Of a stretch of 64,000 nt of DNA, positions 2,874-54,315 are shown in pieces (the first letter of the stretch is position 1; each line of letters begins with the position of its first letter). The DNA is taken from the sequence record OR836606.1; one strand, given 5' to 3'. The notes beneath the pieces are model-generated. The model worked only from the letters and a program-made list of their open reading frames with translations. It had not been told where the DNA came from and did no database searches. The stretch is from Staphylococcus phage LY01. A program made the position numbers and the translations under genes.

Positions 2874-3300
2874 TTATTCTATATAACTTTCTATATCTAC
2901 TTCATTTTGTTTAATTGTCATGTCATGGAAAGATTTCATTGAGCTTGTTACAATAGCTTGAGCCACTTGGTTGACCAGTAGACCAATATTCTCAATTCCT
3001 AATTTATAAGGTAATTCTCCCGCACATTTACTACAAATATCTTCATTAGCACAATACATAGGACTTCTAAACTCTAATACTTTACCCATATAATCATCAA
3101 CATTTTCAGGAGTTAACAAAATTAATTGACCCGATCTCGCATTGTTATCTTTGAAATATCTATACATCATTAATGATGCGTTTGACTTGTCTAATGTCAA
3201 TTTAAGAAAATGATTCGTTCTACAATCCGAACCTTTTTTATCTAAAACTGTTGTTTGAAAGGCTGACATCAATTGCTTGGCTTGATCTAATTTAATTTTT
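2874..3300 (-). CDS. rpoC: RNAP beta-prime subunit, C-terminal exon (region F/G, trigger-loop region); spliced, no own start codon needed
   Basis: RSPMYCANEDICSKCAGELPYKLGIENIGLLVNQVAQAIVTSSMKSFHD aligns to E. coli beta-prime [65 protein letters not shown] aligns to EDDCGTHEGI. The reading frame is open upstream of the annotated Met as far as the intron boundary. Confidence 0.65.
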
Positions 3301-3449
3301 CTGTATTAGTACAATACAGATAAGACTATATCTTCTAATGTAATATATTTAGTCGTTGAACAACTTGTATTAAGTTGATGCTGATTAATCTAATAAGATA
3401 CTTCCAGCAATTAATATTATTTAATGTGAGCATCAAGTTTACCCACCTT
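3301..3449 (-). mobile_element. mini group I intron (family copy, minus orientation) in beta-prime C gene
   Basis: On the minus strand it contains the family core TTAATTGCTGG / ATCAGCATCA / GTTCAACGACTAAATA / GATATAGTCT plus a P9 hairpin (ctgtattgtactaatacag). It is flanked by coding sequence that aligns to beta-prime. Confidence 0.6.
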
Positions 3450-3461
3450 CTTGAGTCATTT

Positions 3462-3636
3462 ATGTTAACTATATTAAAATAATACAGATCAGACTATATC
3501 AAAAACTCTATATGAGCTTAATTATATTTAGTCGTTGAACACTATTTTTAGTGATGCTGATTAACTTAATAAAGGATCTCAGCAATTAATAATTTTTCGT
3601 ATATTATATTACTATAATAAAGGGCATTCATATACC
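3462..3636 (-). mobile_element. mini group I intron (family copy, minus orientation) in beta-prime C gene
   Basis: Same P/Q/R/S core elements as the other copies. The 5' leader aatgccctttattatagtaatataatatacgaaaaat is shared with the copies at 10056 and 10669. About 12-17 nt of exon (atgactcaagaaggtgg) separates it from the intron at 3301-3449. Confidence 0.6.
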
Positions 3637-4431
3637 TAGTGCACGTCCAGCTGAACCAGCAGTCATGACATCTCCAAACATATAAAGTTCATTAGGATCA
3701 ATTCCTTCAGCTAGTGAGCTTTTAGCAATTCTAATTTTACTTGGATCAGCAAAGTTTTTATTGGCTCCACGAATCAATGCAGTTAATTTATAGTTATTAC
3801 CGAATGAACCACGTGAACCACTATCATAAATATCTAAATCGGCTAAACCTTTTAATTCTTCTTTACTTAATTTAATTAATTCTTTTTCAATAGCAGATAT
3901 TGCGTTTAATTCTTCTCCAGAAGTATTCAACTCTTTTTCATATTTAACTAATAATTCTTCTTTCTTTTGTTTAACCTTATCAGTAGCAGTCATCATTGTA
4001 GTAGTTAAACTAGAATTAATAAAACTAGCTATAGAGAATCCTAACCATTGTAATTTATCAATGTAATCTGACATTTCTTGTGTAGTAATAATATCATTGA
4101 GTAATAAGTTTGATAAATCAGATTGAAGCTTACCAATTCCAGAACCACCCATATCGTGATTCATATATCCTATAATTGGCCCAATTTTATTATCTAAAAT
4201 AAATTTATTAAATATATATCTACCTACAGTAGTCTTTTCATCTTTTTTATTATAAACTAAATCTTTTTTTAATGTAAATTTATCTGATGGATTATACATT
4301 GGTTCTGTATTCTGTCTAAAGGCAAATAATTCTTTTAACTTGTCTAATGTAATATCATCTTTACCAACACTTAATAATGTAGATACTTCTTTTTCGTTAA
4401 GTGTTTTATTCTCATAATTCATATTAGCCAA
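3637..4431 (-). CDS. rpoC: RNAP beta-prime subunit, middle part (regions E-F), start of the C-terminal beta-prime gene
   Basis: TTVGRYIF aligns to E. coli TTVGRAIL. YDSGSRGSFGNNYKLTALIRGANKNFADPS aligns to [28 protein letters not shown]. The annotated C-terminal tail ...GI and its stop are read-through into the intron; the true exon ends near 3637. Confidence 0.6.
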
Positions 4432-4970
4432 TTTATTTTCACTTCTTTCATTATTTTATTCATATTTAGATGTTATTGAGCATTTTATAATTTTTATATA
4501 ATTAAACAATGTATATGAAGTTAATAGTTATTTTTATATTAAATATTTAATTGTATTAATTTAATAAAGATAATATAAATAGTCAATGATTTATATTAAA
4601 TTAATATAAATTACAGAAATAAATTATGTAAAAACTATAAATTTTTATAATTATGTGATAAAAAATTTGAAAATGCCCGGAATATTATAATTATATTATA
4701 ATAAAATTATAATAATAAATATATTATTCTTATAATATATTTATATAAATTAAAATATTATGAGGGGATAGTACACATTTTTATTTCATAAAAATGTATT
4801 AAGAAAATAACGAACGAAGTGAGTTATTTTATTTATATAAATCCAATTAAAATACATAACAATAATAATCAAAACTATTGTATATAGGAAATTTATTGAA
4901 TAATATTATAAAATAAAAATAATATAAATATATTAATCAATAAAATTAAATACGGAAAGGAATGGCATAA
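4432..4970. promoter_or_regulatory. 540-bp AT-rich divergent intergenic/promoter region between beta-prime C (-) and beta (+) genes
   Basis: No ORF of 60 aa or longer; extremely AT-rich with many TATAAT-like hexamers. Sits between divergently transcribed RNAP subunit genes. Specific promoters cannot be assigned by eye. Confidence 0.3.
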
Positions 4971-6560
4971 TTGAAATATCTTAATAGATTAAAAAATCTT
5001 AAATTCTATTCAATATCTGGATATAAAATTAAAGCTATTGATGAAGAAATCGAAGATAAGAAAAAAGATCAGTTAGTTATTTATAAAGGTTTTAAAGAAA
5101 ATTCATTTACTGATTTTTTAAATAGTGGATTATTATATCATCAGAATTTTAAGAATATCTATATTCCGAGATTGTATAGAACTAGAAATAGAAGAACTAG
5201 ATTATTAACAAATATAACAGATTATCAAAAAGAGATTAAATCTAAATCTTACAAACAGTATAGAGTTGAAAGAAATGAGAAATTATTTAAAGGTAGAAAC
5301 TATATTGTTGATTCAACTAAATTTATTGATTTAGAAGATAAATCATTAATAACTAGAAATTTTAATACAGTATTGGATTCAATTAAATCAACTTTTAATT
5401 CTTTAAATAATGCAGAAGATTACAATAATTTATTATATGTAATTAATGTTGATGGGTATAATAAGTCTTCTCAAGAAGCAATTAGACCTAATACAAAAGA
5501 TTTCATGTCAAGCTTATTCATGATGATTAAGAATCAAGAGGAATTACCTCATGGTGAAAATCAAAATATTAATTTATTATTTGTCTCATTAGATAATGGA
5601 ATAATGTTTAAATTTGATTATAAAGATTATAATAAACTTAATATGAGACTTAGACAAAGATTAAGAAGAATCATTGATACTAATACACAAGCATTAGATA
5701 CTGATGAAATTAGTAAAGTTGAAGATGATGACAATACTGAAGCTGTAGATGGAGTAATTAAAAAGAAAGCATTTGATAATGTAGGAACAATTGATCCTAT
5801 CGAAGCTCAGAACGATGAAGCTGAATATGAAAATGATGAACAGTTAGAAAAAATATCTAATAAAATAGATTCTACAATAAGTTATATTAGATCATTAGAC
5901 AATACTGAAATGGATGTTGATGATGAATATAATATAGCTATGATAATTGAAAAAGAATTAAATAATAATAAAGATTTAATTGATATTGATACTGAAACAT
6001 TATATTCGGATGTATTGGATAAAAATGATTCATTTAAATCAATTAAGAGAAATATTAAAAATAAATCTAGTATTGGCGATGAAGCACTTAAAAATACTAA
6101 AAAGATATTAGCTTTATCCAAGAAACAAGATGAATACCTTAATGATTTAGAGGATTTTAGCTTTTCTGAAGATAAATTAATCGATAGAGAAATTAATGAA
6201 AATATTAATAATATTAATGAAGAGACTATTAATAATATTGCTTCTAATGATTTTGATGTTTCTTATATGCAAAAAACATTTAATAAAGACTTTATTGATA
6301 TAATGAAAAGCTTTAATGACAATGAAGATATTCCGGTATTTATTAATAAAATGAATATTGAAGATAATTCAGATAGTCAATCATTAAAAAATACAGTTAA
6401 AGTTCAATTTAGAAGTCCAGACGGTTTAACTCATAATGTTAAATTTGATGTTCCTAAAGTTATTGACGGTAAGTACATGAAGCTTAACGGTGGGAAAAAG
6501 ATATTAACTAAACAGTTAATGATGTGGCCAATCGTTAAATATAAACCGGATTGTTCATAA
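4971..6560 (+). CDS. rpoB: RNAP beta subunit, N-terminal exon 1
   Basis: C-terminal part VQFRSPDGLTHNVKFDVPKVIDGKYMKLNGGKKILTKQLMMWPIV aligns to E. coli rpoB [35 protein letters not shown]. A long acidic insertion is present. A Shine-Dalgarno-like sequence lies upstream. Confidence 0.55.
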   Translation: MKYLNRLKNLKFYSISGYKIKAIDEEIEDKKKDQLVIYKGFKENSFTDFLNSGLLYHQNFKNIYIPRLYRTRNRRTRLLTNITDYQKEIKSKSYKQYRVERNEKLFKGRNYIVDSTKFIDLEDKSLITRNFNTVLDSIKSTFNSLNNAEDYNNLLYVINVDGYNKSSQEAIRPNTKDFMSSLFMMIKNQEELPHGENQNINLLFVSLDNGIMFKFDYKDYNKLNMRLRQRLRRIIDTNTQALDTDEISKVEDDDNTEAVDGVIKKKAFDNVGTIDPIEAQNDEAEYENDEQLEKISNKIDSTISYIRSLDNTEMDVDDEYNIAMIIEKELNNNKDLIDIDTETLYSDVLDKNDSFKSIKRNIKNKSSIGDEALKNTKKILALSKKQDEYLNDLEDFSFSEDKLIDREINENINNINEETINNIASNDFDVSYMQKTFNKDFIDIMKSFNDNEDIPVFINKMNIEDNSDSQSLKNTVKVQFRSPDGLTHNVKFDVPKVIDGKYMKLNGGKKILTKQLMMWPIVKYKPDCS

Positions 6561-6803
6561 CAGTCCACTTTTATAGCAATATGAAAGTAAAAAGAATATT
6601 AATTGCTGAAACGGTTTTATTAAATTAATCAGCATCAATTATTATTAATTGTTCAACGACTAAATATATTCACTCTTATTGAGAGTATGATATAGTCTGT
6701 GCTCTAAATTGATAATTTAGAGATTGTATAAAATACAGATAAAAAATTCATATCAGAATTTCTCTTAACATATTTTTATAATATGATTAGGAGGTGAAAT
6801 TAA

Positions 6804-8006
6804 ATGATAAACAAAAACGGAAAATTAGTTAAATCTTTCAAAACTAGAATATACCCAAATCAAGATCAAATAAATTATTTCAATAAATGTTTTGGTGTAA
6901 GAAGAAAAATATGGAATATGGCTTTAGAAGACTATCAAAATAAAGATGATGACGCTCAATTTAGCGGATTTGATTATCAGAAAAAATTAAATAATGAAAT
7001 TTATGAATCTGGTAAATATCCCTATCTTTATGAAGTTAATAGCATGGTTAGACAAGAAGCTTTAAAAGACTTAGATGAATCTTTTAAAATATATAGAAAT
7101 GAACAAAAGAAAGCTAGAAAGTCTAAAGATGCAATTGACACTGAAAAATTTAAACCCAAGTTTAAAAAGAAAAAACATTCTAATGAGTCATTTAGATTTA
7201 TGGTTAAAGATAAGAAATATTTACCTATTAGATTTTTATCTAAGAAATGGATAAAAATTTCCGTAATGAAAGGAATTAAACCTTTTATAATCAAATCTAA
7301 AGAATCAATGAAGTTTATTAATTCTAATAACCATAGATTTCTCACTTACACTATAAGCAGAAAGAATGAAAAATATTATATTTCTGTAACTTATGAGATA
7401 AACAATTATAAGAAACAGAGATTGAATAATGATTCAATTGGTATTGATATGGGTATGAAAACACCATTAGTATGTGTAGATTCAAATGGTCAAACATTTG
7501 AATTTAAAATCCCACATAACTTATGGAAACAAGAAAGAAAAACTGAGAAATTGCAAGCAAAACTATCAAGTAAGAAATATTATTCAAAATCATATTACAA
7601 AACTTTAAAACAATTAAGAAAATCTTATAATAGAGAGTGTAATATATTAGAAGATTATAGAGATAAAATCACTAATTGGTTAGTTAAAAACTATAAAGTG
7701 ATTAATATTGAACCATATAGTCATAAAGCTTCTAATAATTTAAGAAATGCTCGTAGATCTAATAGAAGATTTGGCAAATATGATTTCCTAGAAAAATTAA
7801 AGTATAAGATTTTACAATATGATAATGAATTGAATATAATTACTAAAAAGAAAACTACACAAACATGCTCATCATGCGGTTATGTAAGAACTAACGATGA
7901 GAAACTTGTCATTGGCGATGATATTCATGATTGTCCTAAATGTAATGTAGTTCTTGATAGAGATTTAAATGCGGCTAAAAATATTCTAGATTTAAAATAT
8001 GTTTAA
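6804..8006 (+). CDS. tnpB: TnpB (IS200/IS605 OrfB-family RNA-guided nuclease), no TnpA
   Basis: RuvC-I (IGIDMGMK) and RuvC-II (VINIEP) motifs, Zn-finger (CSSCGY...CPKCN), and RuvC-III (DRDLNAAKNIL). Strong Shine-Dalgarno site. Confidence 0.85.
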   Translation: MINKNGKLVKSFKTRIYPNQDQINYFNKCFGVRRKIWNMALEDYQNKDDDAQFSGFDYQKKLNNEIYESGKYPYLYEVNSMVRQEALKDLDESFKIYRNEQKKARKSKDAIDTEKFKPKFKKKKHSNESFRFMVKDKKYLPIRFLSKKWIKISVMKGIKPFIIKSKESMKFINSNNHRFLTYTISRKNEKYYISVTYEINNYKKQRLNNDSIGIDMGMKTPLVCVDSNGQTFEFKIPHNLWKQERKTEKLQAKLSSKKYYSKSYYKTLKQLRKSYNRECNILEDYRDKITNWLVKNYKVINIEPYSHKASNNLRNARRSNRRFGKYDFLEKLKYKILQYDNELNIITKKKTTQTCSSCGYVRTNDEKLVIGDDIHDCPKCNVVLDRDLNAAKNILDLKYV

Positions 8007-8180
8007 TTAATTTCACAAAATAAAAGATATGAGAGTCGCCTGCGGTCAGCGGGAGACGATAAACGGGTGATAAGCTAATGTCTGATTAGCTTTACAAGGA
8101 GTACAGAGGTACCTCTATACGTTAGTCACTGAGCCAAGTGTATTTTATACAAGATCTTGCCTTTAGATTTAATTATTTAA
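8007..8180 (+). ncRNA. putative omega-RNA / IStron right end
   Basis: A GC-enriched segment with several hairpins (gtcgcctgcggtcagcgggagac...) lies immediately 3' of tnpB. This is atypical for a genome at about 25% GC and sits where TnpB guide-RNA scaffolds are encoded. Confidence 0.45.
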
Positions 8181-8189
8181 AATCAAGAT

Positions 8190-9556
8190 TTAACAAGACA
8201 GACAGTATGGATTACAACTAACTATAATAAATTCATTATAGAAAAATTTGGTTATAAAGAAAATGCTGAAACTGAATGGATCAAGAAAGTTATTGAAGAT
8301 GACCAAGTTATAGATTATATTGAAAATAAATCTAACTTATCTGTTAAAAAAGGTAATGCTTCTTTAATCAATAATAAATATGTAACTTCAGTTATTTATA
8401 ATAGCTTATCTAGAAATATATTAAATTTCCAAGATGACACTAATGTACTTGAATTTAATCAAAGAAGTTTATTAGCGATGATTTCTGATAGTGCTAGTTT
8501 ATCTAAAATTGATTATGATCAAGATAAATATTTCCCTATTGGTTATAATATTAATAAATCTAAATTAATATTAGCAGATAAGACAGAATCTGTTATGTAT
8601 GAATGTAGTAAGACTAATATTAAGTCAATGGAAATGAATATATTTGATTACCTTATTGATAAATTAGACAATGAAGTTGACTTTGGTGTTATTGATAAGA
8701 AATTCAGTAAGAATATTCAGGCTAATAAGACTATGGCATTTTCACGTGTTAAAATTACTAATAAATTAGTACCTACAATTTTATTATTAGGTTTCTATAA
8801 AGGTTTAACTAGTATTCTTGATCTTTATGAAGTTGATTATAAATTTACTACTGAGAATGAAAGAATTAGTATTCATGATAAAAAGAATAAAATTAAATTC
8901 CAAGATGGTTATTTAATATACTCTACTGATAAATTAAGATATGATTTATTAATGTCTGGATTAACTGTATTGCCTACATCACAATACAATTTCAGTGATT
9001 TTGAAACTGAAACACCTTACTTAGAATATTTCAATGATAAATTCTACAGTCGTAATGTTGGTAAAGGTATCAAAAATACTATGGATTTAGCAATGGATCC
9101 TATTACTAAAGAAGTATTAAGGGATTTAAAACTTCCTGATAATATGGTTGAATTATTACTATTAGCTAATACGATGTTAGAAGATGTATCAGCTAGAGAT
9201 CATAATGATATGGGAATTTATCGTGTACGTGGCCCAGAACAAATTAATGCATTATTATATAAAATGATGGCAAATGCTTATAAAGAATATTCAGATTCTT
9301 ATAATAATAAAAATCCTAAGAATATTTCAGTTAAACAAGATCAATTAATTAAAACTATTATGGAACAACCTACAGTGGATGAAGTATCTGATTTAAACCC
9401 TAACTTAGAAATAGATAAGATGACTTCTGTTACATTTAAAGGACCTGCTGGACGTAACTCTGAACAATCATATGAACCTGATATTCGTTCTTACGATGAA
9501 AGTATGCAAGGTATATTAGGAATAAGTACACCTGACAGTAATAAGGTAAATTACTT
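8190..9556 (+). CDS. rpoB: RNAP beta subunit exon 2
   Basis: The frame is open from about 8200, upstream of the annotated ATG at 8478. KGPAGRNSEQSYEPDIRSYDESMQGILGISTPDSNKV aligns to E. coli [39 protein letters not shown]. The annotated C-terminal LPLITVM* is intronic read-through. Confidence 0.6.
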
Positions 9557-9725
9557 GCCCTTAATTACAGTAATGTAATTCAATGAAAATTTATTAATTG
9601 CTAAAAATCTTTATTAAGATGATCAGCATCACTAAAAATAGTGTTCAACGACTAAATATAAATTCACTTATTATAAGTGTAAGATATAGTCTAATCTGTA
9701 TTAGATTATTATAGAATAATACAAA
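9557..9725 (+). mobile_element. mini group I intron in beta gene
   Basis: Family core elements; P8 hairpin cacttattataagtg; P9 ctgtattag...taataca. The exon ends ...AAGGT and the next exon begins after ...ACAAATG. Confidence 0.65.
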
Positions 9726-9885
9726 TGAGGTATTGTCAGACAACTTTCATATGATACACAAATTAAATCTACTCGTGGTTATACTGATGGTAGTAAAAAA
9801 GATGTAAGTGATACAGCTTTATACACACCATTAGAATTATTAAATCCATATACTAGTAGACATGCGGATATACGAAATGAGGTAA
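9726..9885 (+). CDS. rpoB: RNAP beta subunit exon 3 (about 50 codons)
   Basis: (G)IVRQLSYDTQIKSTRGY...LNPYTSRHADIRNE aligns to E. coli INSLSVYAQTNEYGFL...IPFLEHDDANRAL. Confidence 0.55.
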
Positions 9886-10031
9886 GTTCGCAATAAAATT
9901 ATTTAATTGCTGGAAAGCTTTATTAAGTTAATCAGCATCAGTTAAAGACTGTTCAACGACTAAATAATAATTACCATTTATATGGTGAAGATATAGTCTA
10001 ATCTATATTAATTTAATATAGAATAATAAAA
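9886..10031 (+). mobile_element. mini group I intron in beta gene (shortest copy; 5' leader GTAAGTTCGCAATAAAATTAT)
   Basis: Family core; P8 hairpin accatttatatggt; P9 ctatattaatttaatatag. Confidence 0.6.
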
Positions 10032-10055
10032 ATGTCACCTCGTATAGGAATGACT
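10032..10055 (+). CDS. rpoB: RNAP beta subunit micro-exon (about 8 codons, SPRIGMTG)
   Basis: Lies between two introns. With the flanking exons it reads HADIRNE-SPRIGMTG-TQAKHLIATKTNDRPLVGSG, which aligns to E. coli [30 protein letters not shown]. Confidence 0.45.
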
Positions 10056-10238
10056 GGTATTAAAATGAATGCCCTTTATTATAGTAATATAATATACGAA
10101 AAATATTTAATTGCTAAGAATCTTTAATTAAAGAAATTAGCATCAAATTAATACAATTTGTTCAACGACTAAATAATATTATACTTATTTAAGTATTTGA
10201 TATAGTCTGATCTGTATTAAATTAATACAGTTAACATA
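10056..10238 (+). mobile_element. mini group I intron in beta gene
   Basis: Begins after the exon ...ACTGGT and ends ...ACATAAATG. P5 stem shows covariation (GCTAA/TTAGC here versus GCTGG/TCAGC in other copies). P8 is atacttatttaagtat. Confidence 0.65.
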
Positions 10239-10668
10239 AATGACTCAAGCTAAGCATTTAATTGCTACTAAAACAAATGACCGTCCATTAGTTGGTTCCG
10301 GTGTAGATAAATCTTTAGCCTACCAAATTTCAGACACATTTGCTTTTAAAGCTAAAGAAGATGGAAAAGTAACTTCTATTAATGAGAAAACAGGATTAAT
10401 GATTGTTGAATATATTAATGGAGATAAAGATGTAATTGATATATCTGAAAAACTTGCTAAAAACTCTAATGGCGGATTTTATCAAAATAATAAACTTACA
10501 CCGCAATTTGAAGTAGGTAAGAAATTTAATAAAGGACAAATATTAGCTAAAAATGATAATTACTTTGCAGGTTCTGGTAGTAATAATGATATTCAATTCA
10601 CTGCTGGTAAATTATCTAAAGTTGCAGTAGCTAGCTCATATGGTATTATAAATGCCTTTCATTATAGT
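10239..10668 (+). CDS. rpoB: RNAP beta subunit exon 5
   Basis: TQAKHLIATKTNDRPLVGSGVDKSLAYQ...GKVTSINEKTGLMIVEY aligns to E. coli [29 protein letters not shown]. The exon ends ...VAVASSYG, aligning to VAFMPWNG. Confidence 0.65.
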
Positions 10669-10828
10669 AATATAATGTATAAAAAATATTTAATTGCTGG
10701 AAAGTCTTTATTAAGACAATCAGCATCATTAATTTATAATGTTCAACGACTAAATAATATTATACTTAATTAATATGTATTTGATATAGTCTAATCTGTA
10801 TTGATTAACTCTTAATGCAGTTAATATA
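10669..10828 (+). mobile_element. mini group I intron in beta gene
   Basis: Inserted between WNG|Y-NFED codons (exon ...TCATATGGT | intron ... ATAAATG | ACTTATGAGGAC). Family core elements present. Confidence 0.65.
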
Positions 10829-11591
10829 AATGACTTATGAGGACAGTTCTATTATTTCTAATAGTATGTCTGAAGCTATGTCAACTAAAGTTACTATGAA
10901 GAAAACAGTAAATTTAGCTTCCAATACGAATATTCAATATATTGTAAAAGAAGGTCAAAATGTACGTACAGGAGACCCATTAATGATATTTGAGAATTCA
11001 TTTGATGATGAAGGTATCGGTTCTTTATTAGATAAAATTGGATCTGAATTTGAACAAGAAATCCAAGATATTTCTAATAGAGCTGTTAGATCTAAATATA
11101 CAGGCGTAATTAAGAAAGTAAATATCTATTATAATGATGATATTGAAAATATGTCTCCTACATTAGCTAAATTGGTTAATAGTTATATTAATAAATCTAA
11201 GAATAAATATAAAGAATATAAAAATGCAGTTAAAGGTAACAAATCTACATTACCTGGATTAGATGTAGATATTCCTGCAGTTGAAAAAATCAATAATGAA
11301 AAAATTAAAGGTGAAAAAGTTGATGGTGTTCTTATTGAAATCTTTACAGAATATGAAGATGATATGAGTATCGGTGATAAGATTAGTTTCTATGGGGCGT
11401 GTAAAACGGTCATTGCTGACGTTACTCCACCTGACGAATCCCCTTATGCAGAATATAGACCTGATGAAGAAATTGAAGCTATATTCTCTCCATTAAGTAT
11501 CGTGTCTCGTATGACTACAGATATATATCTCATGTTGTTTACCAATAAAGCACTCATAGAGCTTAAGAGAAAAGTTAAAGATATGCTTTAA
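10829..11591 (+). CDS. rpoB: RNAP beta subunit C-terminal exon
   Basis: TYEDSSIISNS aligns to E. coli YNFEDSILVSE. MSIGDKISFYGACKTVIADVTPPDESPY...EAIFSPLSIVSRMTTDIYLMLF aligns to GDKMAGRHGNKGVISKI...[20 protein letters not shown]. Confidence 0.75.
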
Positions 11592-35626: not shown

Positions 35627-36548
35627 TAACCAATTTCCCCCTCTAATTCTTTAATGATATCATCAGAAGCTTCAATAAGAGAAGGTAAACCATGAAACTC
35701 TTGAGCAAAAGCAACACTGTCTTGACTATTAAATTTACTTACGAATTCAGTATTAAAATCATAATTATCTTTATCTTGCTCATATTTAGGTACCGTTATT
35801 CTATCTTTATCAAGAATATTCATCTTACCTACATGTCCTTCAGGTGTTATATTAAATGCTCTAATAATAGATGGATATAGAGAACTTAAGTCAAAGTCAC
35901 AAACATTACTAAATAATCTATTAGATCTAATATCTTTACCTTTAACCAATACGTCTCCATTACGTTCGATTAACATCATATCAGCTACAAATCCGCCACG
36001 AATTTTATCAGCATTAGGATCCGATAATAATTTTGAATGATTATTGCTTAATACATATCCTTGATTTTCAAAGAATACTGAACTACGATTTCTTAAACAA
36101 ATAGTTTTCTTAAGTGCTTTACTAGGTCTTGTTCTAGTCATGTCTACAATAGAGAATAATAGATCAAACATATTAGTGTTATGTTCAATCAATGCAGCTA
36201 ATACAGTATCCTTAATATTATAAAGAATAAATGTATAGTAATCTCTAAAATGTAAATCAGAGATAGAACCTTCATATACATCTTTAGTAACTCCTGCTTC
36301 TTTTTCTCCAATATCATTTAACTTAACTGATTCCAAAGCACCATTGGGCTTATTAATATTTGCATATAACGCTAATTGGTCAATCCAATTAGTATAAGAA
36401 TTAGTCTCAAATGTAGAAGATCTATTAGCCATATCAGTAGCATTTTTATCTAATTTATAATATGCTTTTTTATCTTCAAATTCTTTAGAACAGAAATAAT
36501 CTGCAGGATTTTCTCCATTAGCTCTAATACGTTCAAATATTGCAGGAA
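35626..36548 (-). CDS. family B (T4 gp43-like) DNA polymerase, part 1, exon 3 (polymerase motif A)
   Basis: DFDLSSLYPSIIRAFNITPEG aligns to T4 gp43 DLTSLYPSIIRQVNISPET. The exon begins (K)LDYDFPAIFERI, aligning to T4 IEGFDVPYIMNRV. It ends ...ELEGEIG* with a stop, so the polymerase gene is split here. Confidence 0.75.
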
Positions 36549-36714
36549 AGTCATAATCTAGCTTTTATATTTATTAAATATAAAATAGACTATATCATAC
36601 TCATTAATATGAGTGAATATATTTAGTCGTTGAACAACTCTTATTAAGTTGATGCTGATCATTCTAAAAAGAACGTTCCAGCAATTAATATTCTTTTAAT
36701 GGAACCTATTATCA
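36549..36714 (-). mobile_element. mini group I intron in DNA polymerase gene (minus orientation)
   Basis: Family core elements. Splits the Exo II motif between ...ICTAWN and LDYDFP (T4 ...IFTGWN|IEGFD). Confidence 0.6.
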
Positions 36715-37018
36715 ATTCCATGCAGTACATATGTCAGGCTTACTAATTTCATTAATATAATATAAGAAAGATTTAATTACTTGCATTTCTGTATCTAATT
36801 CATATATCTCAAATTCTAAACCTAAATTTTTACCAATTTCACTATTTTCATTATTATAAATTTCATTTAAGTTTTTAATTAATTTATCTTGATCTTCCAT
36901 AGTTTCTTTATAAGTGTCAGTGTCATATTTAAGAGCAAATGTTAATACTTTTTTCTTACTCCAATCCACTACAGTTATAATATTTATCTCTGCCTCAGCT
37001 TTAAGCGGGTCCGGGACA
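36715..37018 (-). CDS. DNA polymerase part 1, exon 2 (Exo II region)
   Basis: VPDPLKAEAEINIITVVDWSKKKVLTF aligns to T4 FPDPMKAEYEIDAITHYDSIDDRFYVF. PDICTAWN aligns to PAIFTGWN. Confidence 0.7.
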
Positions 37019-37151
37019 ATTTGTATTAAAAGTAATACAAATTAGACTATATCTTCTTAGTAATATATTTAGTCGTTGAACATTAAATTTTTAATGATGC
37101 TGATTATCTTAATAAAGAATTTCCAGCAATTAATATTATTTTATCTGAGCT
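37019..37151 (-). mobile_element. mini group I intron in DNA polymerase gene
   Basis: Family core. The junction ...TTAAAGGT | intron | CCCGGACCC restores LKVPDP in frame. About 133 nt, among the smallest copies. Confidence 0.6.
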
Positions 37152-37642
37152 ACCTTTAACCCAGTTACTTGAGATCCATCAACCTCAATATCGAATAGAC
37201 ATATATCTATACCAACTTTACTGTCTAAATTCTTTTTAATATACTCATTGATATTATAATCTTCTATATTTATATCAGAACCATGAGCATTATTTAATAA
37301 ATGGAAATCTTTTAGTTTTCTATATTCTTGCCAATTACCTGACTTCATAATTCTATCGTATTCTGCTTTATCTTGAGAATTACCAGCTTCTTTAACTACT
37401 GATTTGATAATATCTTTATGCTTACAAATAACAGTTCTTACTTTATCTTTTTCAATAGAACCTACAATTTTATTAGGAGGTAACCAATGTTCATCTTTAG
37501 TTACATAATAATGCATCATAGGATCTGTTATTTCCATATGTTTTTTAGTACCATCCTCTTCTTTAACTACCATTACTACTTTTTCTTTACCAGAAGCAGT
37601 TTCTTTTTTATTTAAATATGTTGATTTAATGAATCTTCCCAT
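37152..37642 (-). CDS. DNA polymerase part 1, exon 1 (N-terminus, Exo I motif)
   Basis: ICLFDIEVDGSQ aligns to T4 ANCDIEVTGDK (Exo I DxE). The annotated tail VAQIK* is intron read-through. Confidence 0.7.
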
Positions 37643-48120: not shown

Positions 48121-48165
48121 AAGAGATAACGGACAATTATAGTCCGTTATCTCATCTTTTTAAAT
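48121..48165 (-). terminator. rho-independent terminator of the beta-prime N gene
   Basis: On the minus strand: gagataacggactataattgtccgttatctc hairpin followed by a T-run, directly after the TAA stop. Confidence 0.55.
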
Positions 48166-48198
48166 TTATTCTTTAGTTAAAGAGTATAAAGCTTGTAC
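48166..48198 (-). CDS. rpoC: RNAP beta-prime N gene, last exon (VQALYSLTKE*)
   Basis: Joined to the previous exon it gives ...NESNMLVQALYSLTKE, aligning to E. coli ...PSQDVVLGLYYMTRD. Confidence 0.5.
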   Translation of the reverse strand, partial: VQALYSLTKE

Positions 48199-48327
48199 CA
48201 TATTATTTATGATAATTAGACTATATCTTCTTAGTAATATATTTAGTCGTTGAACAACTTATATTAAGTTGATGCTGATTAATCTAATAAGATACTTCCA
48301 GCAATTAATATTATTTATTGAGAGCAT
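48199..48327 (-). mobile_element. mini group I intron (minus orientation)
   Basis: Family core elements; 3' end ...ATAAATAATATG. Confidence 0.55.
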
Positions 48328-48461
48328 ACAAGCATGTTACTCTCATTACCCAAATTACGTACTGAATTACCAGTGTAGTTTAGGTAGTTAGTTTTCTTAT
48401 TAAGAAGTTTATTAGCTTCTTTATTAGCCTCTACAGTCCAGAGAGATCTGATAGAAATCAT
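48328..48461 (-). CDS. rpoC: RNAP beta-prime N gene exon (DMISIRSLWTVEANKEANKLL...)
   Basis: D-MISIRSLWTVEANKEANKLLNKKTNYLNYTGNSV aligns to E. coli [36 protein letters not shown]. Confidence 0.6.
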
Positions 48462-48621
48462 ATCCATTTACGTTATCTATATTAAGATAATATAGATCAG
48501 ACTATATCTTTACTTTAATAAGCATATTATATTTAGTCGTTGAACACTATTTGTAGTGATGCTGATTAAGATAATAATCTTTCCCAGCAATTAATAATAT
48601 TTAAATACGGCAATATAAATT
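48462..48621 (-). mobile_element. mini group I intron (minus orientation)
   Basis: Family core; 5' end GGT|AATTTATATTGCC..., 3' end ...AACGTAAATG|GATATG. Confidence 0.6.
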
Positions 48622-48630
48622 ACCGTCAAA
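48622..48630 (-). CDS. rpoC: 9-nt micro-exon TTTGACGGT (Phe-Asp-Gly of the catalytic NADFDGD loop)
   Basis: The splice model gccgaT | intron | TTTGACGGT | intron | GATATGATTTCT reads ...LGADFDGDMISIRSL, reconstituting the universally conserved ADFDGD. No other junction choice gives the motif. Confidence 0.5.
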
Positions 48631-48811
48631 CGTTTATGTTATCTATAATAAATGATATCATAGACCAGACTATATCATCATCTCAATTGAGATATATTAT
48701 ATTTAGTCGTTGAACAACTTATATGAAGCTGATGCTGATTGCTCTAATAAGAGTTTTCAGCAATTAATAATATTTTCATTCTTAAATCACTTTAAGAAGC
48801 GACTTTTTCAA
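48631..48811 (-). mobile_element. mini group I intron (minus orientation)
   Basis: Family core. Its 5' leader GTCGCTTCTTAAAGTGATTTAAGAATGAAAATATTATTAATTGCT is shared with the copy at 49393-49550. Confidence 0.6.
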
Positions 48812-48825
48812 ATCGGCACCTAACG
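48812..48825 (-). CDS. rpoC: 14-nt micro-exon (..LGAD) of beta-prime N gene
   Basis: cgttaggtgccgat lies between the large intron and the next mini intron and supplies G-A-D of GADFDGD. Confidence 0.4.
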
Positions 48826-49200
48826 CTATTTAATTTATAATTAAATTTGGACTATATCATAAACCTAAATATTAGGTTCCCTCACACTTCGGGAATTCAT
48901 TTCCCTACTCTACTCACTTCGTTATAGTATTTCAACTATACTTATTCTCTATATAAGAGTTACATTTATTGTTTTCGATAGTCTCTGAACGTTTATCCAT
49001 CATGTGGATACTTCGCTGCTAGACTTTCCCATTATTAAATACCCTTAGCATTTTCAGCATAGGTCATCAAAGAGATTTTTTCTGTCTTTCGACTGCATGT
49101 CACGCTATCCATTACTGGCATACGTTGTAGCTCTCTAAGCATTAGGGTTTACAAGCAATTCATAAGGTATTTTTTATCCTATATTACTATAAGACTGGAG
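48826..49200 (-). mobile_element. larger group I intron (about 370 nt, no ORF), same R/S core with expanded peripheral domains
   Basis: The minus-strand reading contains GAATTGCTTGTAAAC (P), GTTCAGAGACTATCGAAAAC (R-like) and GATATAGTC (S). It is about 80% identical to the segment at 56265-56640. The 5' boundary is uncertain (about 49190-49215). Confidence 0.55.
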
Positions 49201-49392
49201 CGTAAGTTACTCCGGCATAACTGTTGTGTATAATAGCGGTATCTATAAATACATCTTCATCAACAGGATATTCATGAACAACTTTAGGATAATCTTTAAG
49301 TACAATATCGTCTAAAGTAATTTCAGGAATTGTATCAACTGTAGTCAATATTTTAATTTTGGCAGGTGCAACATTCAAGAAATTTTCGCAAA
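49201..49392 (-). CDS. rpoC: RNAP beta-prime N gene exon
   Basis: (C)ENFLNVAPAKIKILTTVD...NSYAG; follows region ...HVVYSRYPINTLV, which aligns to E. coli EHPVLLNRAPTLHRL. Confidence 0.45.
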
Positions 49393-49550
49393 CTATATTA
49401 AATTAATACAGATCAGACTATATCATTACCTACTTTTAGGTATATTATATTTAGTCGTTGAACAAGTTTAATTGACTTGATGCTAATTAACCTATTAAAG
49501 TCTTTTAGCAATTAATAATATTTTCATTCTTAAATCACTTTAAGAAGCGA
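49393..49550 (-). mobile_element. mini group I intron (minus orientation)
   Basis: Family core elements; 3' end ...TTTAATATAG. Confidence 0.6.
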
Positions 49551-50712
49551 CCAGTGTATTAATCGGATATCTTGAATAAACCACATGCTTATCTTCACAT
49601 ATTTCTGTAGCAGCTATATAAAGTAAATCAATTACAGTAAAAGTTCTACCTAAAGTATTTTCAAATAATTTAACTTTATGACGTTTACCTTGTCTATCAT
49701 TTACATATATAGGACTAAATCTTTCATTAGGATCCTTAATAAAGAATTCTAACATATTCTTAATAGCTTTATCATCAAACTGTTCATATACTTCTTCTAA
49801 TGATAATTCATTTTCATCAGTTCCAGTAGCGGTTTGGAAGGCATCTTTGTGGATTTCAATAAAATCGATAATGTATTTGCTAAAGAAAGGTAAGAATAAA
49901 GTAACTAATTGAGTTAATGGTACCCCTAACTGACCAAATTCAATTTGCATTTCATCCCATTTATTTGAATTAATCTTAGGTGAAGAAATAACTGAGCGAG
50001 TACTGTTATCTACCGTCTTACCTAAAATATTTCTTTGCATCATACCAGTTTTACCTGATAGTTCTCCTGAAGTTAATTTAACGTATATTTCAAATAATTT
50101 ATTTTGAATATTATATTTAGTCGTATTAGCTACAAAGTCAAATGAATTAAAACTAATTGAATCTACAGATCTTAAGATGCTTGCATACATATCATTTATT
50201 TCTTCAGTATCTTGAATTTCCCCTGAAGTTTCATTAGGATTAAAGTCACGATAGAAAGCAGGTATTACGAGCCATTTATCTGTGAATATTCTATCTTTAG
50301 GAGTATTTTTAAGCATATCAATTTTTTCATTTCGGATACGAGAATCATTTTTTCTAAATTTAAGATTTTCATAATTATCGTATAAGAAATTTAATCCAGT
50401 TTCACCATTTTCATCTGGAACTAATTGTCCTTTCTCAATTTTAAAGTAATCAGAACCTTGAATACATAGATCTATATTCTTATCTAATTCTCTCATAGCT
50501 TTATAAGCTACAGGATTCAAGTATTTGCCACCTAAATTAATCCAACCTATATTATTCTTTCTTTCATCAGTACCTATTAAACCAAATATTTCATATGAAA
50601 ATAAACCATCTTCTTTAGGTAAAGTTCCTGAATCAAAGAAAATAGGATTAGTAACTTCTTTAGCTCCATAAGCTGTAATAACTTGATCAACATTAACCAT
50701 ATCTATTTTCAT
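49551..50712 (-). CDS. rpoC: RNAP beta-prime subunit N-terminal exon
   Basis: LPKEDGLFSYEIFGL aligns to E. coli KPERDGLFCARIFGP. GWINLGGKYLNPVAY aligns to GHIELASPTAHIWF. WLVIPAFYRDF aligns to WMILTVLPVLPPDLRP. NILGKTVDNSTRSVISSPKI aligns to [21 protein letters not shown]. Confidence 0.75.
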
Positions 50713-53050: not shown

Positions 53051-53751
53051 TTAGAATTTAATCATATTAGATACAAATGAACTATTTGAAGATTCCAATA
53101 CTCTAACACCAATAGATTCAATAATATCTTTACCTGGTTTAATATGATCTTCAATCATACTATCATAGTCAATAAAAGGTCTAAACTCTTCAGGAATTGT
53201 ATTACCTTCAACTGCAATTACATTTAAACCGTTTTTAACTAAACTTTCATTCTTAAATACTTCTCTAAATCTATCTAAAGTATCTTCATCAGTTATCTTA
53301 TTTTTAATATCTCCAAATGTACTAATATTCAATTTAACTGCTAATATCTTAGCAGGTAATGCTATTTCTTTTTCTGGGAACATTATATTCCATGCTAAAG
53401 CAGCTCTATATGCCATTTGAGAATAAGGGTCTTTATATACCTCAGCATTATTAGCTTTAAACGGTTTTAAGAATTCGATTTCTCCATTATCTAATGATTT
53501 CTTAATCATTTCTTCTATATCTTTAAATTTACGTATTATCTTAATACGATCTACACCGGTTTTATTTTCTAAAATATCTTTTTGTAATATTTCAGTAAAT
53601 AGTTCTCTAATACGTTTATTAGTATTAACTTTTCTAATAGCCATACCTTTAACATCTAAATCTGGAGGTTGAATTAAATTACCCTCTTGTTGAATTACTG
53701 ATGATGCATAAGTTTTCTTTTTATCAGTTGTTAATTGTTTATCAAGTAAAA
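53051..53751 (-). CDS. DNA polymerase part 2, C-terminal exon
   Basis: The frame is open upstream of the annotated Met. ...DKKKTYASSVIQQEGNLIQPPDLDVKGMAIRKVNTNKRIRELFTEILQKDIL aligns to T4 gp43 ...[51 protein letters not shown]. Confidence 0.6.
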
Positions 53752-53893
53752 CATTTTTATTAGCTTTATTAAATTAATAAAGATTAGACTATATCTTATA
53801 CTTATATTAAGTACATTTATATTTAGTCGTTGAACTTAATTTCTTAAGCTGCTGATTTAATTAATGAACTATTCCAGCAATTAATAAATTTAT
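53752..53893 (-). mobile_element. mini group I intron (minus orientation) in DNA polymerase part 2
   Basis: Family core elements; 3' end ...GCTAATAAAAATG. Confidence 0.55.
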
Positions 53894-54161
53894 CTTTCTG
53901 TATATCGCTATACAACGGAGCATTAACTTGATAATACTCATTTTTCATTGATATTAAACCTAAATGTTCTTCCTCTAATCCTACATCTTTACAGAATCTA
54001 TAGTAAGACAATTCTAATAATTTAGTTATTTGATAGTTAATAATAGATATATTACTTACACGTTGTTCTAATTTATCCTCTAAACCATTCTCTGCAATTG
54101 GAAAATCTTCAGGTTTTAAAGATTTAAATTTTTCGTATAACGGATCTAAGTGAACAAAGTT
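53894..54161 (-). CDS. DNA polymerase part 2 exon (after motif C)
   Basis: NFVHLDPLYEKF... follows DTDS directly. T4 gp43: DTDSVYVCVD. The annotated ATG is the ATG of the intron 3' end ATAAATG. Confidence 0.6.
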
Positions 54162-54315
54162 CATTTATGTTAGCTGTATCAAATATAATACAGATCAGAC
54201 TATATCTTCTTTAGAAATATATTTAGTCGTTGAACTTAATTTCTTAAGCTGCTGATTTGATTAATAAATCATTCCAGCAATTAATATTTTTTATTGACAG
54301 CAATTTTTTATCACA
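54162..54315 (-). mobile_element. mini group I intron inserted right after polymerase motif C (DTDS|)
   Basis: Family core elements. Read-through tail ...NCWNDLLIKSAA of the upstream ORF is intron-encoded; the same tail occurs on ORF 53844..54164. Confidence 0.6.

What the first reader, a model, noticed from the sequence alone, without database searches (positions are those of the whole stretch)
6555..8190. IStron (group I intron + TnpB + omega-RNA) inserted in the RNAP beta gene of a phage
A mini group I intron (6561-6745) is followed by an intact TnpB gene with RuvC-I/II/III and a Zn-finger, then a GC-rich structured 3' region typical of an omega-RNA scaffold.

Beta coding sequence is interrupted at ...MMWPIVKYKPD and resumes near 8190. 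There is no TnpA. This matches the intron-transposon chimera architecture known from clostridial and Bacillus IStrons, but here it sits in a phage RNAP gene.

The guide portion of the omega-RNA would be the beta-exon sequence just 3' of about 8180. That would let TnpB cut intron-less alleles, a homing-like drive.
Basis: partly seen in the sequence, partly recalled or inferred. Interest (0 to 1): 0.75.

Follow-up and report, generated by a model that had tools for sequence, protein, structure and literature searches.

The report
TnpB-carrying self-splicing intron in phage RNAP
A 1,650-base mobile element made of a tiny self-splicing group I intron, an RNA-guided nuclease gene (TnpB) and its guide-RNA scaffold interrupts the RNA polymerase beta gene of a Staphylococcus jumbo phage; it is an IStron-type element that seems to spread between phages as an RNA-guided homing intron, which makes that long-suspected mechanism directly testable.

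Summary
The window comes from Staphylococcus jumbo phage LY01. Its RNAP beta gene carries an exact 1,650-nt insert (6552-8201) that nine related phages lack. The insert follows a U and ends in G. Removing it, together with four small ORF-less introns, restores a 4,254-nt ORF collinear with the intron-less S6 gene.

- **5' part (6552-6737):** a complete miniature group I ribozyme (P1-P9.1, P/Q/R/S elements), supported by covariation.
- **Middle (6804-8006):** an intact TnpB with D215/E303/D387, a zinc finger and dN/dS of 0.11-0.29.
- **3' part (8035-8201):** an omega-RNA scaffold. It covaries, has a pseudoknot, and shares its core with intron-free TnpB elements from high-GC soil and Actinomycetota contigs.

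Three sister copies sit in three other genes of phage Machias. Eight more distant TnpB relatives on AT-rich metagenomic contigs have the same layout where the contig reaches. None has a TnpA. Occupied sites carry short patches of synonymous changes next to the junction, as expected from homing with co-conversion.

Verdict: a genuine IStron-type element. IStrons, TnpB-only IStrons and phage-borne IStrons are already published, so this is a new TnpA-less, virulent-phage variant. Splicing and cleavage are inferred, not shown.

The parts
4971..6551 (+). RNAP beta exon 1; its last four bases GGAT (6548-6551) are both the exon strand of P1 and the candidate TAM
   Evidence: Contiguous with exon 2 in MarsHill, S6 and seven other phages. 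The spliced ORF equals the S6 beta CDS in length, with 97.5% aa identity.
6552..8201 (+). Whole IStron-type element (group I intron + tnpB + omega-RNA), 1,650 nt
   Evidence: Exact insert relative to nine phages. It begins after U and ends with G. It is 85.7% identical end to end to a copy in another Machias gene.
6548..6566 (+). P1 hairpin: GGAU|UGUU pairs with AACAGUCC. The U.G wobble at 6551/6563 marks the 5' splice site. The internal guide is GUCC (6563-6566).
   Evidence: Fold. Compensatory changes in sister copies: AGAU with GUCU (L002) and UAUU with AAUA (L007).
6567..6588 (+). P2 hairpin with GCAA loop
   Evidence: Fold; coordinates.
6594..6697 (+). Catalytic core: P3 6594-6599 with P3' 6666-6671; P4 6604-6608 with 6630-6634; P5 6613-6626; P6 6636-6651; P7 6658-6662 with P7' 6693-6697; P8 6672-6686. 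Conserved P, Q, R and S elements at 6601-6614, 6627-6636, 6651-6664 and 6687-6699.
   Evidence: 18-sequence alignment A2: 99.5% of cells paired against 85% in shuffles (0/500). P3 has 5 of 6 pairs changed on both sides.
6698..6737 (+). J7/9 (UGUG, 6698-6701; its UG is proposed to pair with CA 8199-8200 as P9.0), P9 hairpin 6702-6722, P9.1 hairpin 6725-6737
   Evidence: Folds. P9.0 partners differ between intron classes (AU/AU, GU/AC, UG/CA), read from the sequences.
6769..6796 (+). Conserved hairpin (6769-6785) and Shine-Dalgarno AGGAGGUG (6789-6796) in front of tnpB
   Evidence: Identical in all four Staphylococcus-phage copies. An analogous hairpin plus GGAGGUG occurs in the metagenomic relatives.
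6804..8006 (+). tnpB, 400 aa, RNA-guided endonuclease. RuvC D215/E303/D387; zinc finger CSSC...CPKC.
   Evidence: Pfam; NCBIfam guided_TnpB, with IS200-type scoring above IS607-type; PDB ISDra2 TnpB E=1.8e-19 over the full length; dN/dS 0.11-0.29 among four copies.
8035..8057 (+). Omega-RNA stem-loop 1 (nexus-like); loop GGUCA 8044-8048, of which GUC 8045-8047 forms pseudoknot strand 1
   Evidence: 100% paired in 12 elements with three covarying pairs. The same motif lies directly after tnpB in intron-free high-GC elements.
8058..8135 (+). GAUAAACG linker plus a branched domain: outer stem (8066-8068 with 8133-8135) enclosing hairpins 8072-8092 and 8101-8120
   Evidence: Covariation (helices 3 and 4). 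The outer stem is also present, and covaries, in the high-GC soil/Actinomycetota elements.
8139..8191 (+). Small hairpin 8139-8151 and terminal long stem-loop 8152-8191
   Evidence: Fold. Compensatory differences among sister copies are visible in the sequences.
8192..8201 (+). 3' tail AACAAGACAG. GAC 8197-8199 is pseudoknot strand 2; CA 8199-8200 is P9.0; G8201 is the terminal (omega) G at the 3' splice site and the last scaffold base.
   Evidence: Pseudoknot 100% paired, 2 of 3 pairs changed on both sides (L007 GGU/ACC, L043 GUU/AAC). Boundary.
8202..8221 (+). First 20 nt of beta exon 2 (ACAGTATGGATTACAACTAA), the predicted guide of the unspliced transcript
   Evidence: Position directly 3' of the scaffold (inference from TnpB biology). 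Naive alleles differ at +3/+6 or at +6 only.
8202..9547 (+). RNAP beta exon 2

Best explanation
This is an IStron-type chimeric mobile element in virulent Staphylococcus jumbo phage LY01. It contains a miniature group I ribozyme (about 190 nt, P1-P9.1) at the 5' end, an intact IS200/IS605-type tnpB, and the TnpB guide-RNA (omega-RNA) scaffold at the 3' end. The last base of the scaffold is also the intron's terminal G.

The proposed mechanism has two RNA fates.
- **Splicing.** The beta pre-mRNA folds, P1 (GGAU|UGUU with AACAGUCC) sets the 5' splice site, and P9.0 plus G8201 set the 3' splice site. Splicing restores an uninterrupted beta mRNA, so the insertion costs the phage little.
- **Guide RNA.** A fraction of unspliced transcripts is bound by TnpB as omega-RNA. 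The scaffold is 8035-8201 and the guide is the first 16-20 nt of exon 2.

In a co-infection with an intron-less relative, the complex would recognise the contiguous RGAT motif plus target. It would cut inside exon 2, and repair from the intron-bearing genome would copy the element in, along with a short stretch of flanking exon.

The tail GACAG takes part in both the omega-RNA pseudoknot and P9.0/terminal G, so the two RNA fates exclude each other, as in Clostridium IStrons.

Shown here: the architecture, the exact boundaries, the RNA structures by covariation, the integrity of and selection on TnpB, multiple insertion sites, and the junction-proximal mosaic patches. Inferred: splicing in vivo, TnpB cleavage, the identity of the TAM, and how new sites are first invaded.
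For: **Boundaries and empty sites**
- Exact insert relative to nine phages.
- Removing five introns gives a 4,254-nt ORF collinear with the S6 gene at 97.5% aa identity.

**Ribozyme**
- P/Q/R/S elements and P3-P7 are 99.5% paired, 0/500 shuffles. Hairpins P5, P6, P8 and P9 are present in most or all of the 18 family members. Fold z-score is -4.3.
- P1 covaries with the exon at new sites.

**TnpB**
- Family matches, catalytic triad aligned to ISDra2 D191/E278/D361, dN/dS 0.11-0.29 with dS 0.57-0.75.

**Omega-RNA**
- 95% paired against 78% in shuffles, with a covarying pseudoknot.
- Its core is shared with intron-free tnpB elements.
- It is absent from ORF-less introns of the same family.

**Mobility**
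- Four copies in four genes share only the 5' flank RGAT. All of these sites are empty in the other phages.
- Synonymous patches hug the junction. Beta has changes at -4, +3 and +6. gyrB has AGT to TCG plus a change at +6. The virion gene has changes at -4, +12 to +27 and +37, matching a different phage lineage.
- MarsHill carries a perfect TAGAT plus 20-nt target for one Machias copy.

**No TnpA**.

The same layout is seen on the AT-rich metagenomic contigs. Seven of eight hold the ribozyme core, TnpB and 3' domain; the eighth is cut by its contig end inside the core.
Against: - No RNA or biochemical data: neither splicing nor cleavage was observed.
- Rfam's group I model does not hit this or any sister intron.
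- No convincing P10 pairing with exon 2 was found by inspection.
- The guides of three of the four copies do not perfectly match any sampled naive allele. Mismatches fall at +3/+6, at +6, or at +12/+15/+18, and -4 is T or C rather than G in most naive alleles. Cleavage of the sampled relatives is therefore uncertain.
- The pseudoknot is only 3 bp.
- The 5'-flank motif differs among the distant relatives (GGGT, GAGT, CCT) and overlaps P1, so conservation due to a TAM cannot be separated from conservation due to P1.
- How the element reaches a new gene without TnpA is unexplained.
Confidence: 0.75

Rival explanations
1. It is an ordinary non-autonomous IS200/IS605-type IStron. Movement to and from sites is done by a Y1 TnpA supplied in trans, by the host or by another element. 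TnpB only restores excised copies and does not drive inter-phage homing.
For: Specificity is 5'-only, at (R)GAT, which resembles the TTGAT TAM of ISDra2 and Clostridioides difficile IStrons. The 3' end is CAG, as in group A IStrons (PMC13565253). Hairpins lie about 16 nt from the left end and 10 nt from the right end, a geometry like IS608 ends as I recall them. Four unrelated insertion sites require some way of reaching new sites.
Against: No TnpA or TnpA remnant occurs in the window, in the three Machias loci or in the eight metagenomic loci. The mosaic patches around occupied sites point to recombinational acquisition from other phage lineages, not to cut-and-paste insertion, which leaves flanks unchanged.
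Confidence: 0.15
2. TnpB and the 3' domain are passive or decaying cargo. The 3' domain serves only as an intron peripheral structure, and the intron spreads by general phage recombination or by reverse splicing.
For: Phages recombine freely. The ribozyme belongs to a family with at least 15 ORF-less copies in this window, which persist without any nuclease. The guides mismatch most sampled naive alleles.
Against: TnpB is under purifying selection with an intact active site in all four copies. The 3' domain is far more conserved than synonymous sites, and it is homologous to the RNA downstream of intron-free tnpB genes. The ORF-less introns do without it.
Confidence: 0.07
3. The insert is not spliced. 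Beta is made as two polypeptides, as with the naturally split RNAP subunits of AR9-like phages.
For: AR9-type phage RNAP subunits are often split (my own knowledge). There is an in-frame stop three codons into the insert.
Against: The break falls inside a contiguous conserved ORF in nine relatives. Exon 2 has no start codon or ribosome-binding site near 8202; the first ATG in frame is at 8478. The insert has every group I hallmark and is bounded by U and G.
Confidence: 0.03

Closest known systems
Group A IStrons (CdISt1 of Clostridioides difficile and relatives; IS200/IS605-type)
   Same: Group I ribozyme at the 5' end, tnpB downstream, and an omega-RNA at the 3' end whose last base is the 3' splice site. 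The 5' exon ends in T and the element ends in CAG. Target specificity lies on the 5' side only, and copies occur in unrelated protein-coding genes (PMC4227781; PMC13565253; bioRxiv 10.1101/2023.11.20.567912). The TnpB scores higher on the IS200-type NCBIfam model than on the IS607-type.
   Different: No tnpA or remnant in any of 12 elements examined. The flank is RGAT (GGGT, GAGT or CCT in distant relatives), not T-rich TTGAT/ATTAT/TTTAT. The end is ACAG/CCAG/ACGG rather than TCAG. The hosts are virulent jumbo phages and AT-rich phage-like contigs. The ribozyme is only about 190 nt and belongs to the phage's own resident intron family. There is comparative evidence of transfer between genomes with co-conversion.
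Group B IStrons (BcISt1; CboIStron; CbISt3/CbISt4 of Clostridium botulinum phages c-st and D-1873; IS607-type)
   Same: Phage-borne IStrons already exist. The omega-RNA has consecutive stem-loops plus a pseudoknot whose 3' strand overlaps the nucleotides needed for splicing, so guide formation and splicing exclude each other (PMC13521648).
   Different: Group B elements insert after GG, the 5' exon ends in G, they end in CGG, and they use a serine TnpA. Here the 5' exon ends in T, and the TnpB is IS200/IS605-like.
Homing-endonuclease-bearing group I introns of phages (T4 td/I-TevI, Twort, SPO1, AR9)
   Same: A self-splicing intron in an essential phage gene carries a nuclease ORF. Presence is sporadic among close relatives, and flanking exon markers are co-converted.
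   Different: The nuclease is RNA-guided. [quoted passage not shown]
ISDra2 TnpB / omega-RNA (PDB 8EXA, 8H1J)
   Same: Full-length homology, RuvC D-E-D and zinc finger conserved. The guide RNA is encoded at the 3' end of the element.
   Different: About 27% identity judged from the alignment. Here it is embedded in an intron, with no partner TnpA.

Membership tests
IStron | Group I intron ribozyme occupying the 5' end of the element | tested here: met
   P1-P9.1 at 6548-6737 and P/Q/R/S elements. Covariation in 18 relatives: 99.5% paired, 0/500 shuffles.
IStron | IS200/IS605- or IS607-family gene(s) (tnpA and/or tnpB) inside the intron, downstream of the ribozyme | tested here: met
   tnpB at 6804-8006. 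tnpA is absent.
IStron | Splice sites coincide with the element's ends; precise removal restores the host ORF | tested here: met
   The insert 6552-8201 is exact relative to nine empty alleles. The spliced ORF is collinear with the S6 gene. The same holds for three Machias copies.
IStron | Copies in different genes sharing a short 5' target motif but no 3' motif | tested here: met
   Beta CCGGAT|, large hypothetical-protein gene (Machias 207/209) TTAGAT|, gyrB TCGGAT|, virion gene CCGGAT|. The 3' flanks are unrelated.
IStron | Omega-RNA scaffold at the 3' end with a pseudoknot overlapping the 3' splice-site nucleotides | tested here: met
   (structure and pseudoknot covariation). (homology to RNAs of intron-free tnpB elements).
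IStron | Self-splicing demonstrated | not testable with these tools
   Needs RT-PCR or in vitro splicing.
IStron | Transposition by TnpA at the DNA level (subterminal hairpins bound by a Y1 or serine transposase) | tested here: inconclusive
   No TnpA in the window or in related loci. Hairpins lie near both ends, but binding cannot be tested, and the complete LY01 genome was not available.
Group I intron | U.G wobble at the 5' splice site in P1, terminal G at the 3' splice site, P3-P7 pseudoknotted core with conserved P7 | tested here: met
   U6551.G6563 and G8201. P3 and P7 are each 100% paired; P3 covaries (5 of 6 pairs) and P7 is invariant. All five introns of this gene follow T and end in G.
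Group I intron | Match to the Rfam Intron_gpI covariance model | tested here: not met
   No hit even at E<=10. The model also misses every ORF-less sister intron, so this reflects the model's reach. It is not a defining feature of the class.
Group I intron | Subclass IA2 (as for all known IStron introns) | not tested
   The P/Q/R/S sequences resemble phage IA-type introns as I recall them. No classifier was available.
TnpB (RNA-guided endonuclease) | HTH/WED-REC, split RuvC with D-E-D, and zinc-finger TNB domain | tested here: met
   Pfam PF12323, PF01385 and PF07282. NCBIfam NF040570 at 200.8 bits against a cut-off of 100. D215/E303/D387 align to ISDra2 D191/E278/D361.
TnpB (RNA-guided endonuclease) | TAM-dependent, guide-dependent DNA cleavage | not testable with these tools
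   Needs a plasmid-interference or in vitro assay.

The most novel reading that the evidence does not exclude
A whole lineage of IStrons has shed its transposase and lives in virulent phages as a true RNA-guided homing intron. TnpB with an exon-derived guide replaces the protein-only homing endonuclease. It drives the intron, plus a few dozen bases of flanking exon, into co-infecting relatives, and it retargets itself automatically whenever the element lands in a new gene. The ribozyme's internal guide and the flanking codons are then recoded to fit, as in the gyrB change AGT to TCG. On this reading it is a natural, programmable gene drive acting between phage genomes, and a weapon in phage-phage competition.
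Probability: 0.5. Interest if true: 0.75.

Novelty: new variant of a known kind. Interest (0 to 1): 0.62.

Why it matters
IStrons are known, and TnpB-only IStrons have been taken to imply intron homing, but a 2026 review says this still awaits experimental validation (PMC13565253).

This element offers a tractable natural system:
- culturable Staphylococcus jumbo phages with the element (LY01, Machias);
- close relatives with empty sites (S6, MarsHill, PB50), including one with a perfect motif-plus-20-nt target;
- four different guides in one family.

A mixed-infection cross with a RuvC-dead mutant would directly test RNA-guided intron homing. The element also shows that RNA-guided nucleases circulate in virulent jumbo phages inside essential genes (RNAP beta, gyrB, virion proteins). 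It provides a compact 400-aa TnpB with a roughly 170-nt scaffold from an AT-rich background. Finally, it illustrates how splicing, guide formation and target choice are packed into the same few nucleotides.

Tried and rejected
**Searches that gave nothing**
- Rfam scans of the window, of 6300-11000 at E<=10, and of eight related loci gave no group I or omega-RNA family hit. I relied on manual structure plus covariation instead.
- IMG/VR scans with the TnpB protein and with the omega-RNA motif gave nothing useful.
- The second LY01 TnpB (P0002, 89% identical) could not be located on a contig, so its insertion site is unknown.
- Campylobacter phage CP220 was fetched as a source of a TnpA sequence, but it is TnpB-only. 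I used a recalled IS200 TnpA instead, validated as Pfam Y1_Tnp. Whether any Staphylococcus jumbo phage outside the fetched loci encodes a TnpA could not be read from the truncated organism list.

**Readings considered and rejected**
- The 3' domain as a P9 extension of the intron. It is shared with intron-free tnpB elements and missing from ORF-less sister introns.
- Beta naturally split at this point. Nine relatives are contiguous there, and exon 2 has no start signal.
- A P10 pairing between exon 2 and the P1 loop. Only a displaced 4-bp match (UAUG/CAUA) exists in LY01 and none in the Machias copy.
- A long-range helix between the post-P9 segment (GAUUGU) and the tail (ACAAG). It is suggestive in some members (7 bp in L008) but not positionally consistent, so I do not claim it.
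- A single TAM for the whole family. The 5' flanks differ among distant members and overlap P1.

Full report
**1. Source and observation**

The TnpB protein encoded in the window is 100% identical to a protein of Staphylococcus phage LY01, from a contig of 258,897 bp. The beta region is 95-96% identical to the AR9-like S. aureus jumbo phages S6, DC4, PALS_2, MarsHill and Madawaska. The region has about 23% GC.

An ORF in frame 0 runs from 4971 to 6557, and frame 0 reopens at 8181. blastn against MarsHill aligns 4900-6551 and 8202-9548 to adjacent positions 4652|4653. The insert is therefore exactly 6552-8201 (1,650 nt).

Exon 1 ends ...KYKPD with T6551. The insert ends with G8201. Exon 2 begins ACAGTATGG (TVW). 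All nine related phages examined have an uninterrupted allele at this point.

The same gene holds four further small introns: 9548-9727, 9870-10034, 10059-10242 and 10645-10832. Deleting all five gives a 4,254-nt ORF of the same length as the intron-less S6 beta CDS, with 97.5% ungapped amino-acid identity.

**2. The 5' part is a complete, miniature group I ribozyme**

By inspection, 6601-6699 carries the classical conserved elements:
- P: AAUUGCUGAAACGG
- Q: AAUCAGCAUC
- R: GUUCAACGACUAAA
- S: AUGAUAUAGUCUG

The thermodynamic centroid of 6546-6760 reproduces P1, P2, P4-P5, P6, P7 enclosing P8, P9 and P9.1, with z = -4.3 and 0 of 200 shuffles as stable.

The core belongs to a family with at least 15 copies in this 64-kb window. 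I aligned 18 members: 15 from the window (14 ORF-less plus this one) and the three TnpB-bearing copies of phage Machias. P3, P4, P5, P6 and P7 are 99.5% paired against 85% in shuffles (0/500). The long-range P3 helix has 5 of 6 pairs changed on both sides. The variable segments fold into P6 and P9 hairpins in every member, and into P5 and P8 hairpins in most.

P1 is GGAU|UGUU with AACAGUCC, and the U6551.G6563 wobble marks the splice site. In sister copies the exon and intron strands change together: AGAU with GUCU in L002, and UAUU with AAUA in L007.

The two bases before the terminal G appear to pair with J7/9 (P9.0). The partners differ between intron classes: AU/AU in ORF-less introns, GU/AC in the intron near 48.7 kb, and UG/CA in the TnpB introns (sequences). 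This ties the distant 3' end to the ribozyme.

Rfam's group I model detects none of these introns. I treat that as a limit of the model.

**3. The ORF is an intact TnpB**

- Pfam finds HTH_OrfB_IS605, OrfB_IS605 and Cas12f1-like_TNB.
- NCBIfam guided_TnpB scores 200.8 bits against a cut-off of 100. The IS200-type model (171.7 bits) scores above the IS607-type model (85.4 bits).
- The protein aligns over its full length with ISDra2 TnpB (8BF8/8EXA, E = 1.8e-19). D215, E303 and D387 fall on D191, E278 and D361, and both CxxC pairs are present.
- Among the four Staphylococcus-phage copies, dN/dS is 0.11-0.29 at dS 0.57-0.75. The gene is under purifying selection.
- A strong Shine-Dalgarno (AGGAGGUG) preceded by a conserved hairpin lies upstream.

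**4. The 3' part is an omega-RNA scaffold, not an intron appendage**

I collected eight more distant TnpB relatives (36-46% aa identity) from AT-rich metagenomic contigs (GC 25-31% where measured). Seven of them have a larger group I core, then GGAGGUG, then TnpB, then a 3' domain. The eighth (L010) is cut by its contig end inside the core. The 3' domain ends in UAACAAGACAG|, AAUAAGACGG| or AACAAAACAG|.

I aligned 12 of these 3' domains as A1. A structure of stem-loop 1, an outer stem, an inner hairpin and a pseudoknot is 95% paired against 78% in shuffles (0/500), and 16 pairs change on both sides. The 3-bp pseudoknot joins the SL1 loop (GUC 8045-8047) to the tail (GAC 8197-8199). It is 100% paired, with two independent double changes: GGU/ACC in L007 and GUU/AAC in L043.

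The decisive result came from a motif scan. The pattern GUCGC..RGU..GRGAGACKAUAAACG was found in 25 high-GC contigs (59-76% GC) from soil metagenomes and an Actinomycetota MAG. Wherever tblastn detects a tnpB on these contigs, the motif lies directly after its 3' end. None of the contigs has group I R or S elements. Most of these elements diverge from each other right after ...AACGG, about 190-220 nt downstream. They also share the next stem, with covariation (GACG/CGUC, CUCG/CGAG, CGCG/CGCG), and most share a GGAG motif.

The domain therefore travels with TnpB, whether or not an intron is present. Conversely, the ORF-less introns of the same family lack it. In the phage collection the domain occurs only at the three Machias TnpB copies, and in the window only once.

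The architecture matches what has been described for Clostridium IStron omega-RNAs: consecutive stem-loops, with a pseudoknot whose 3' strand lies in the last nucleotides that splicing also needs (bioRxiv 10.1101/2023.11.20.567912; PMC13521648). In LY01 the tail GACAG serves the pseudoknot (GAC), P9.0 (CA) and the terminal G. The guide state and the splicing state should therefore exclude each other.

**5. Mobility**

Machias carries three copies (80-87% aa identity to this one). They sit in a large hypothetical-protein gene (207/209), in gyrB at the conserved ...RHRSD|MYVG... motif, and in a virion-protein gene. LY01 has a second copy that I could not locate.

The four mapped sites share only the 5' flank:

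| Gene | Junction |
|---|---|
| RNAP beta (LY01) | CCGGAT\|ACAG... |
| Large hypothetical-protein gene (Machias 207/209) | TTAGAT\|ATGA... |
| gyrB (Machias) | TCGGAT\|ATGT... |
| Virion gene (Machias) | CCGGAT\|GTTT... |

Joined exons of each Machias site align in one piece to all other Staphylococcus jumbo phages in the collection. The boundaries are therefore exact and each insertion is lineage-specific.

Three of the four occupied alleles differ from naive ones by clustered synonymous changes at the junction:
- **Beta.** Changes at -4, +3 and +6. They are the only differences from MarsHill, DC4 and PALS_2 within 45 nt on either side, and two of them match the Machias-type allele.
- **gyrB.** The Ser codon changes from AGT to TCG, plus TAT to TAC. 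Neither change is seen in any of four naive alleles spanning 79-98% identity.
- **Virion gene.** Changes at -4, at +12 to +27 and at +37. This tract matches SA1/MarsHill-type alleles, while the rest of the flank is PB50-like.

Such short mosaic tracts are what double-strand-break repair from an intron-bearing donor leaves behind. Their extension into exon 2 fits a TnpB cut some 15-21 bp downstream of the TAM, a distance taken from published TnpB biochemistry as I recall it. This link is an inference.

The fourth site shows no patch. MarsHill there has a perfect TAGAT plus 20-nt match to the Machias guide.

No Y1 transposase is detectable in the window or in any related locus.

**6. Mechanism, with confidence**

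The architecture and boundaries are essentially certain. Splicing is very likely. RNA-guided homing by TnpB is the best-supported account of spread, at roughly two chances in three.

Weak points:
- There are no expression or cleavage data.
- The guides of three copies mismatch the sampled naive alleles, and -4 is T or C in most of those alleles. They may be resistant survivors.
- The TAM cannot be separated from the P1 requirement.
- The first invasion of a new gene is unexplained. Candidates are a TnpA in trans, reverse splicing at GGAU sites, or illegitimate repair.

**7. Comparison with what is known, and novelty**

IStrons were described in C. difficile and B. cereus. A survey found 16 types, including TnpB-only elements and copies in C. 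botulinum phages c-st and D-1873 (PMC4227781). Their RNA conflict has been dissected experimentally (10.1101/2023.11.20.567912; PMC13521648). A 2026 review notes that TnpB-only IStrons imply intron homing, still unvalidated (PMC13565253).

My literature searches found no report of IStrons in Staphylococcus or jumbo phages. GenBank labels the Machias genes simply 'transposase'.

The element meets the IStron definition and is closest to group A. It differs in four ways:
- a consistently TnpA-free lineage;
- a non-T-rich flank;
- residence in virulent phages, in essential genes;
- a roughly 190-nt ribozyme drawn from the phage's own intron family.

I rate it a new variant of a known kind, bordering on a new member. 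Interest is 0.62. A specialist would not be astonished, but the element turns an open question into a simple phage cross.

Noticed in passing
window 4971-11591: The LY01 RNAP beta gene carries five group I introns: 6552-8201, 9548-9727 (180 nt), 9870-10034 (165 nt), 10059-10242 (184 nt) and 10645-10832 (188 nt). A 24-nt mini-exon lies at 10035-10058. The S6 orthologue has none. At 165-188 nt the ORF-less introns are unusually small for group I.
   Followed up: yes
window cores at 3249-3662(-), 36513-37206(-), 48144-49588(-), 53712-54357(-), plus the four in beta: At least 15 mini group I introns of one family lie in 64 kb, some in tandem a few dozen bases apart (3662-3249, 48840-48425). Two larger group I-like cores have S elements near 56279(-) and 48858(-). 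Rfam detects none of them.
   Followed up: partly
window cores 54162-54294(-), 48183-48318(-), 37009-37143(-), 3288-3424(-): Four family members have no P8 hairpin; P3' runs almost straight into the S element (ATATTACTAAGAAGATATAGTC). Whether they still splice is unknown.
   Followed up: no
window 6769-6796; also L002, L006-L011, L037-L043 upstream of tnpB: A hairpin directly upstream of, or overlapping, the tnpB Shine-Dalgarno is conserved across all TnpB-bearing introns, including the distant metagenomic ones. It may gate TnpB translation, as in some phage homing-endonuclease genes.
   Followed up: no
loci L012-L036 (soil metagenomes and an Actinomycetota MAG): A multi-copy family of high-GC TnpB elements shares the omega-RNA core with the phage IStrons (SL1, GAUAAACG linker, outer stem, and GGAG in most). 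Most end at ...AACGG with unrelated flanks. This implies an old, widely conserved scaffold type.
   Followed up: partly
L006 2745-2756 versus L051, L052, L060, L061: In Machias gyrB, the serine codon just before the intron is TCG. All four naive alleles have AGT, a three-base synonymous switch. It places G at -4 (GGAT), which both P1 and the presumed TAM would use.
   Followed up: partly
protein P0002 (Staphylococcus phage LY01, outside the window): LY01 encodes a second TnpB, 89% identical to this one. Its location and host gene could not be retrieved.
   Followed up: partly
L003 6215-7322 and L001 6343-7275: Elsewhere in the Machias and MarsHill beta genes, introns carry other ORFs: an annotated homing endonuclease in Machias and a hypothetical protein in MarsHill. 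Different relatives thus hold different mobile introns in the same gene.
   Followed up: no
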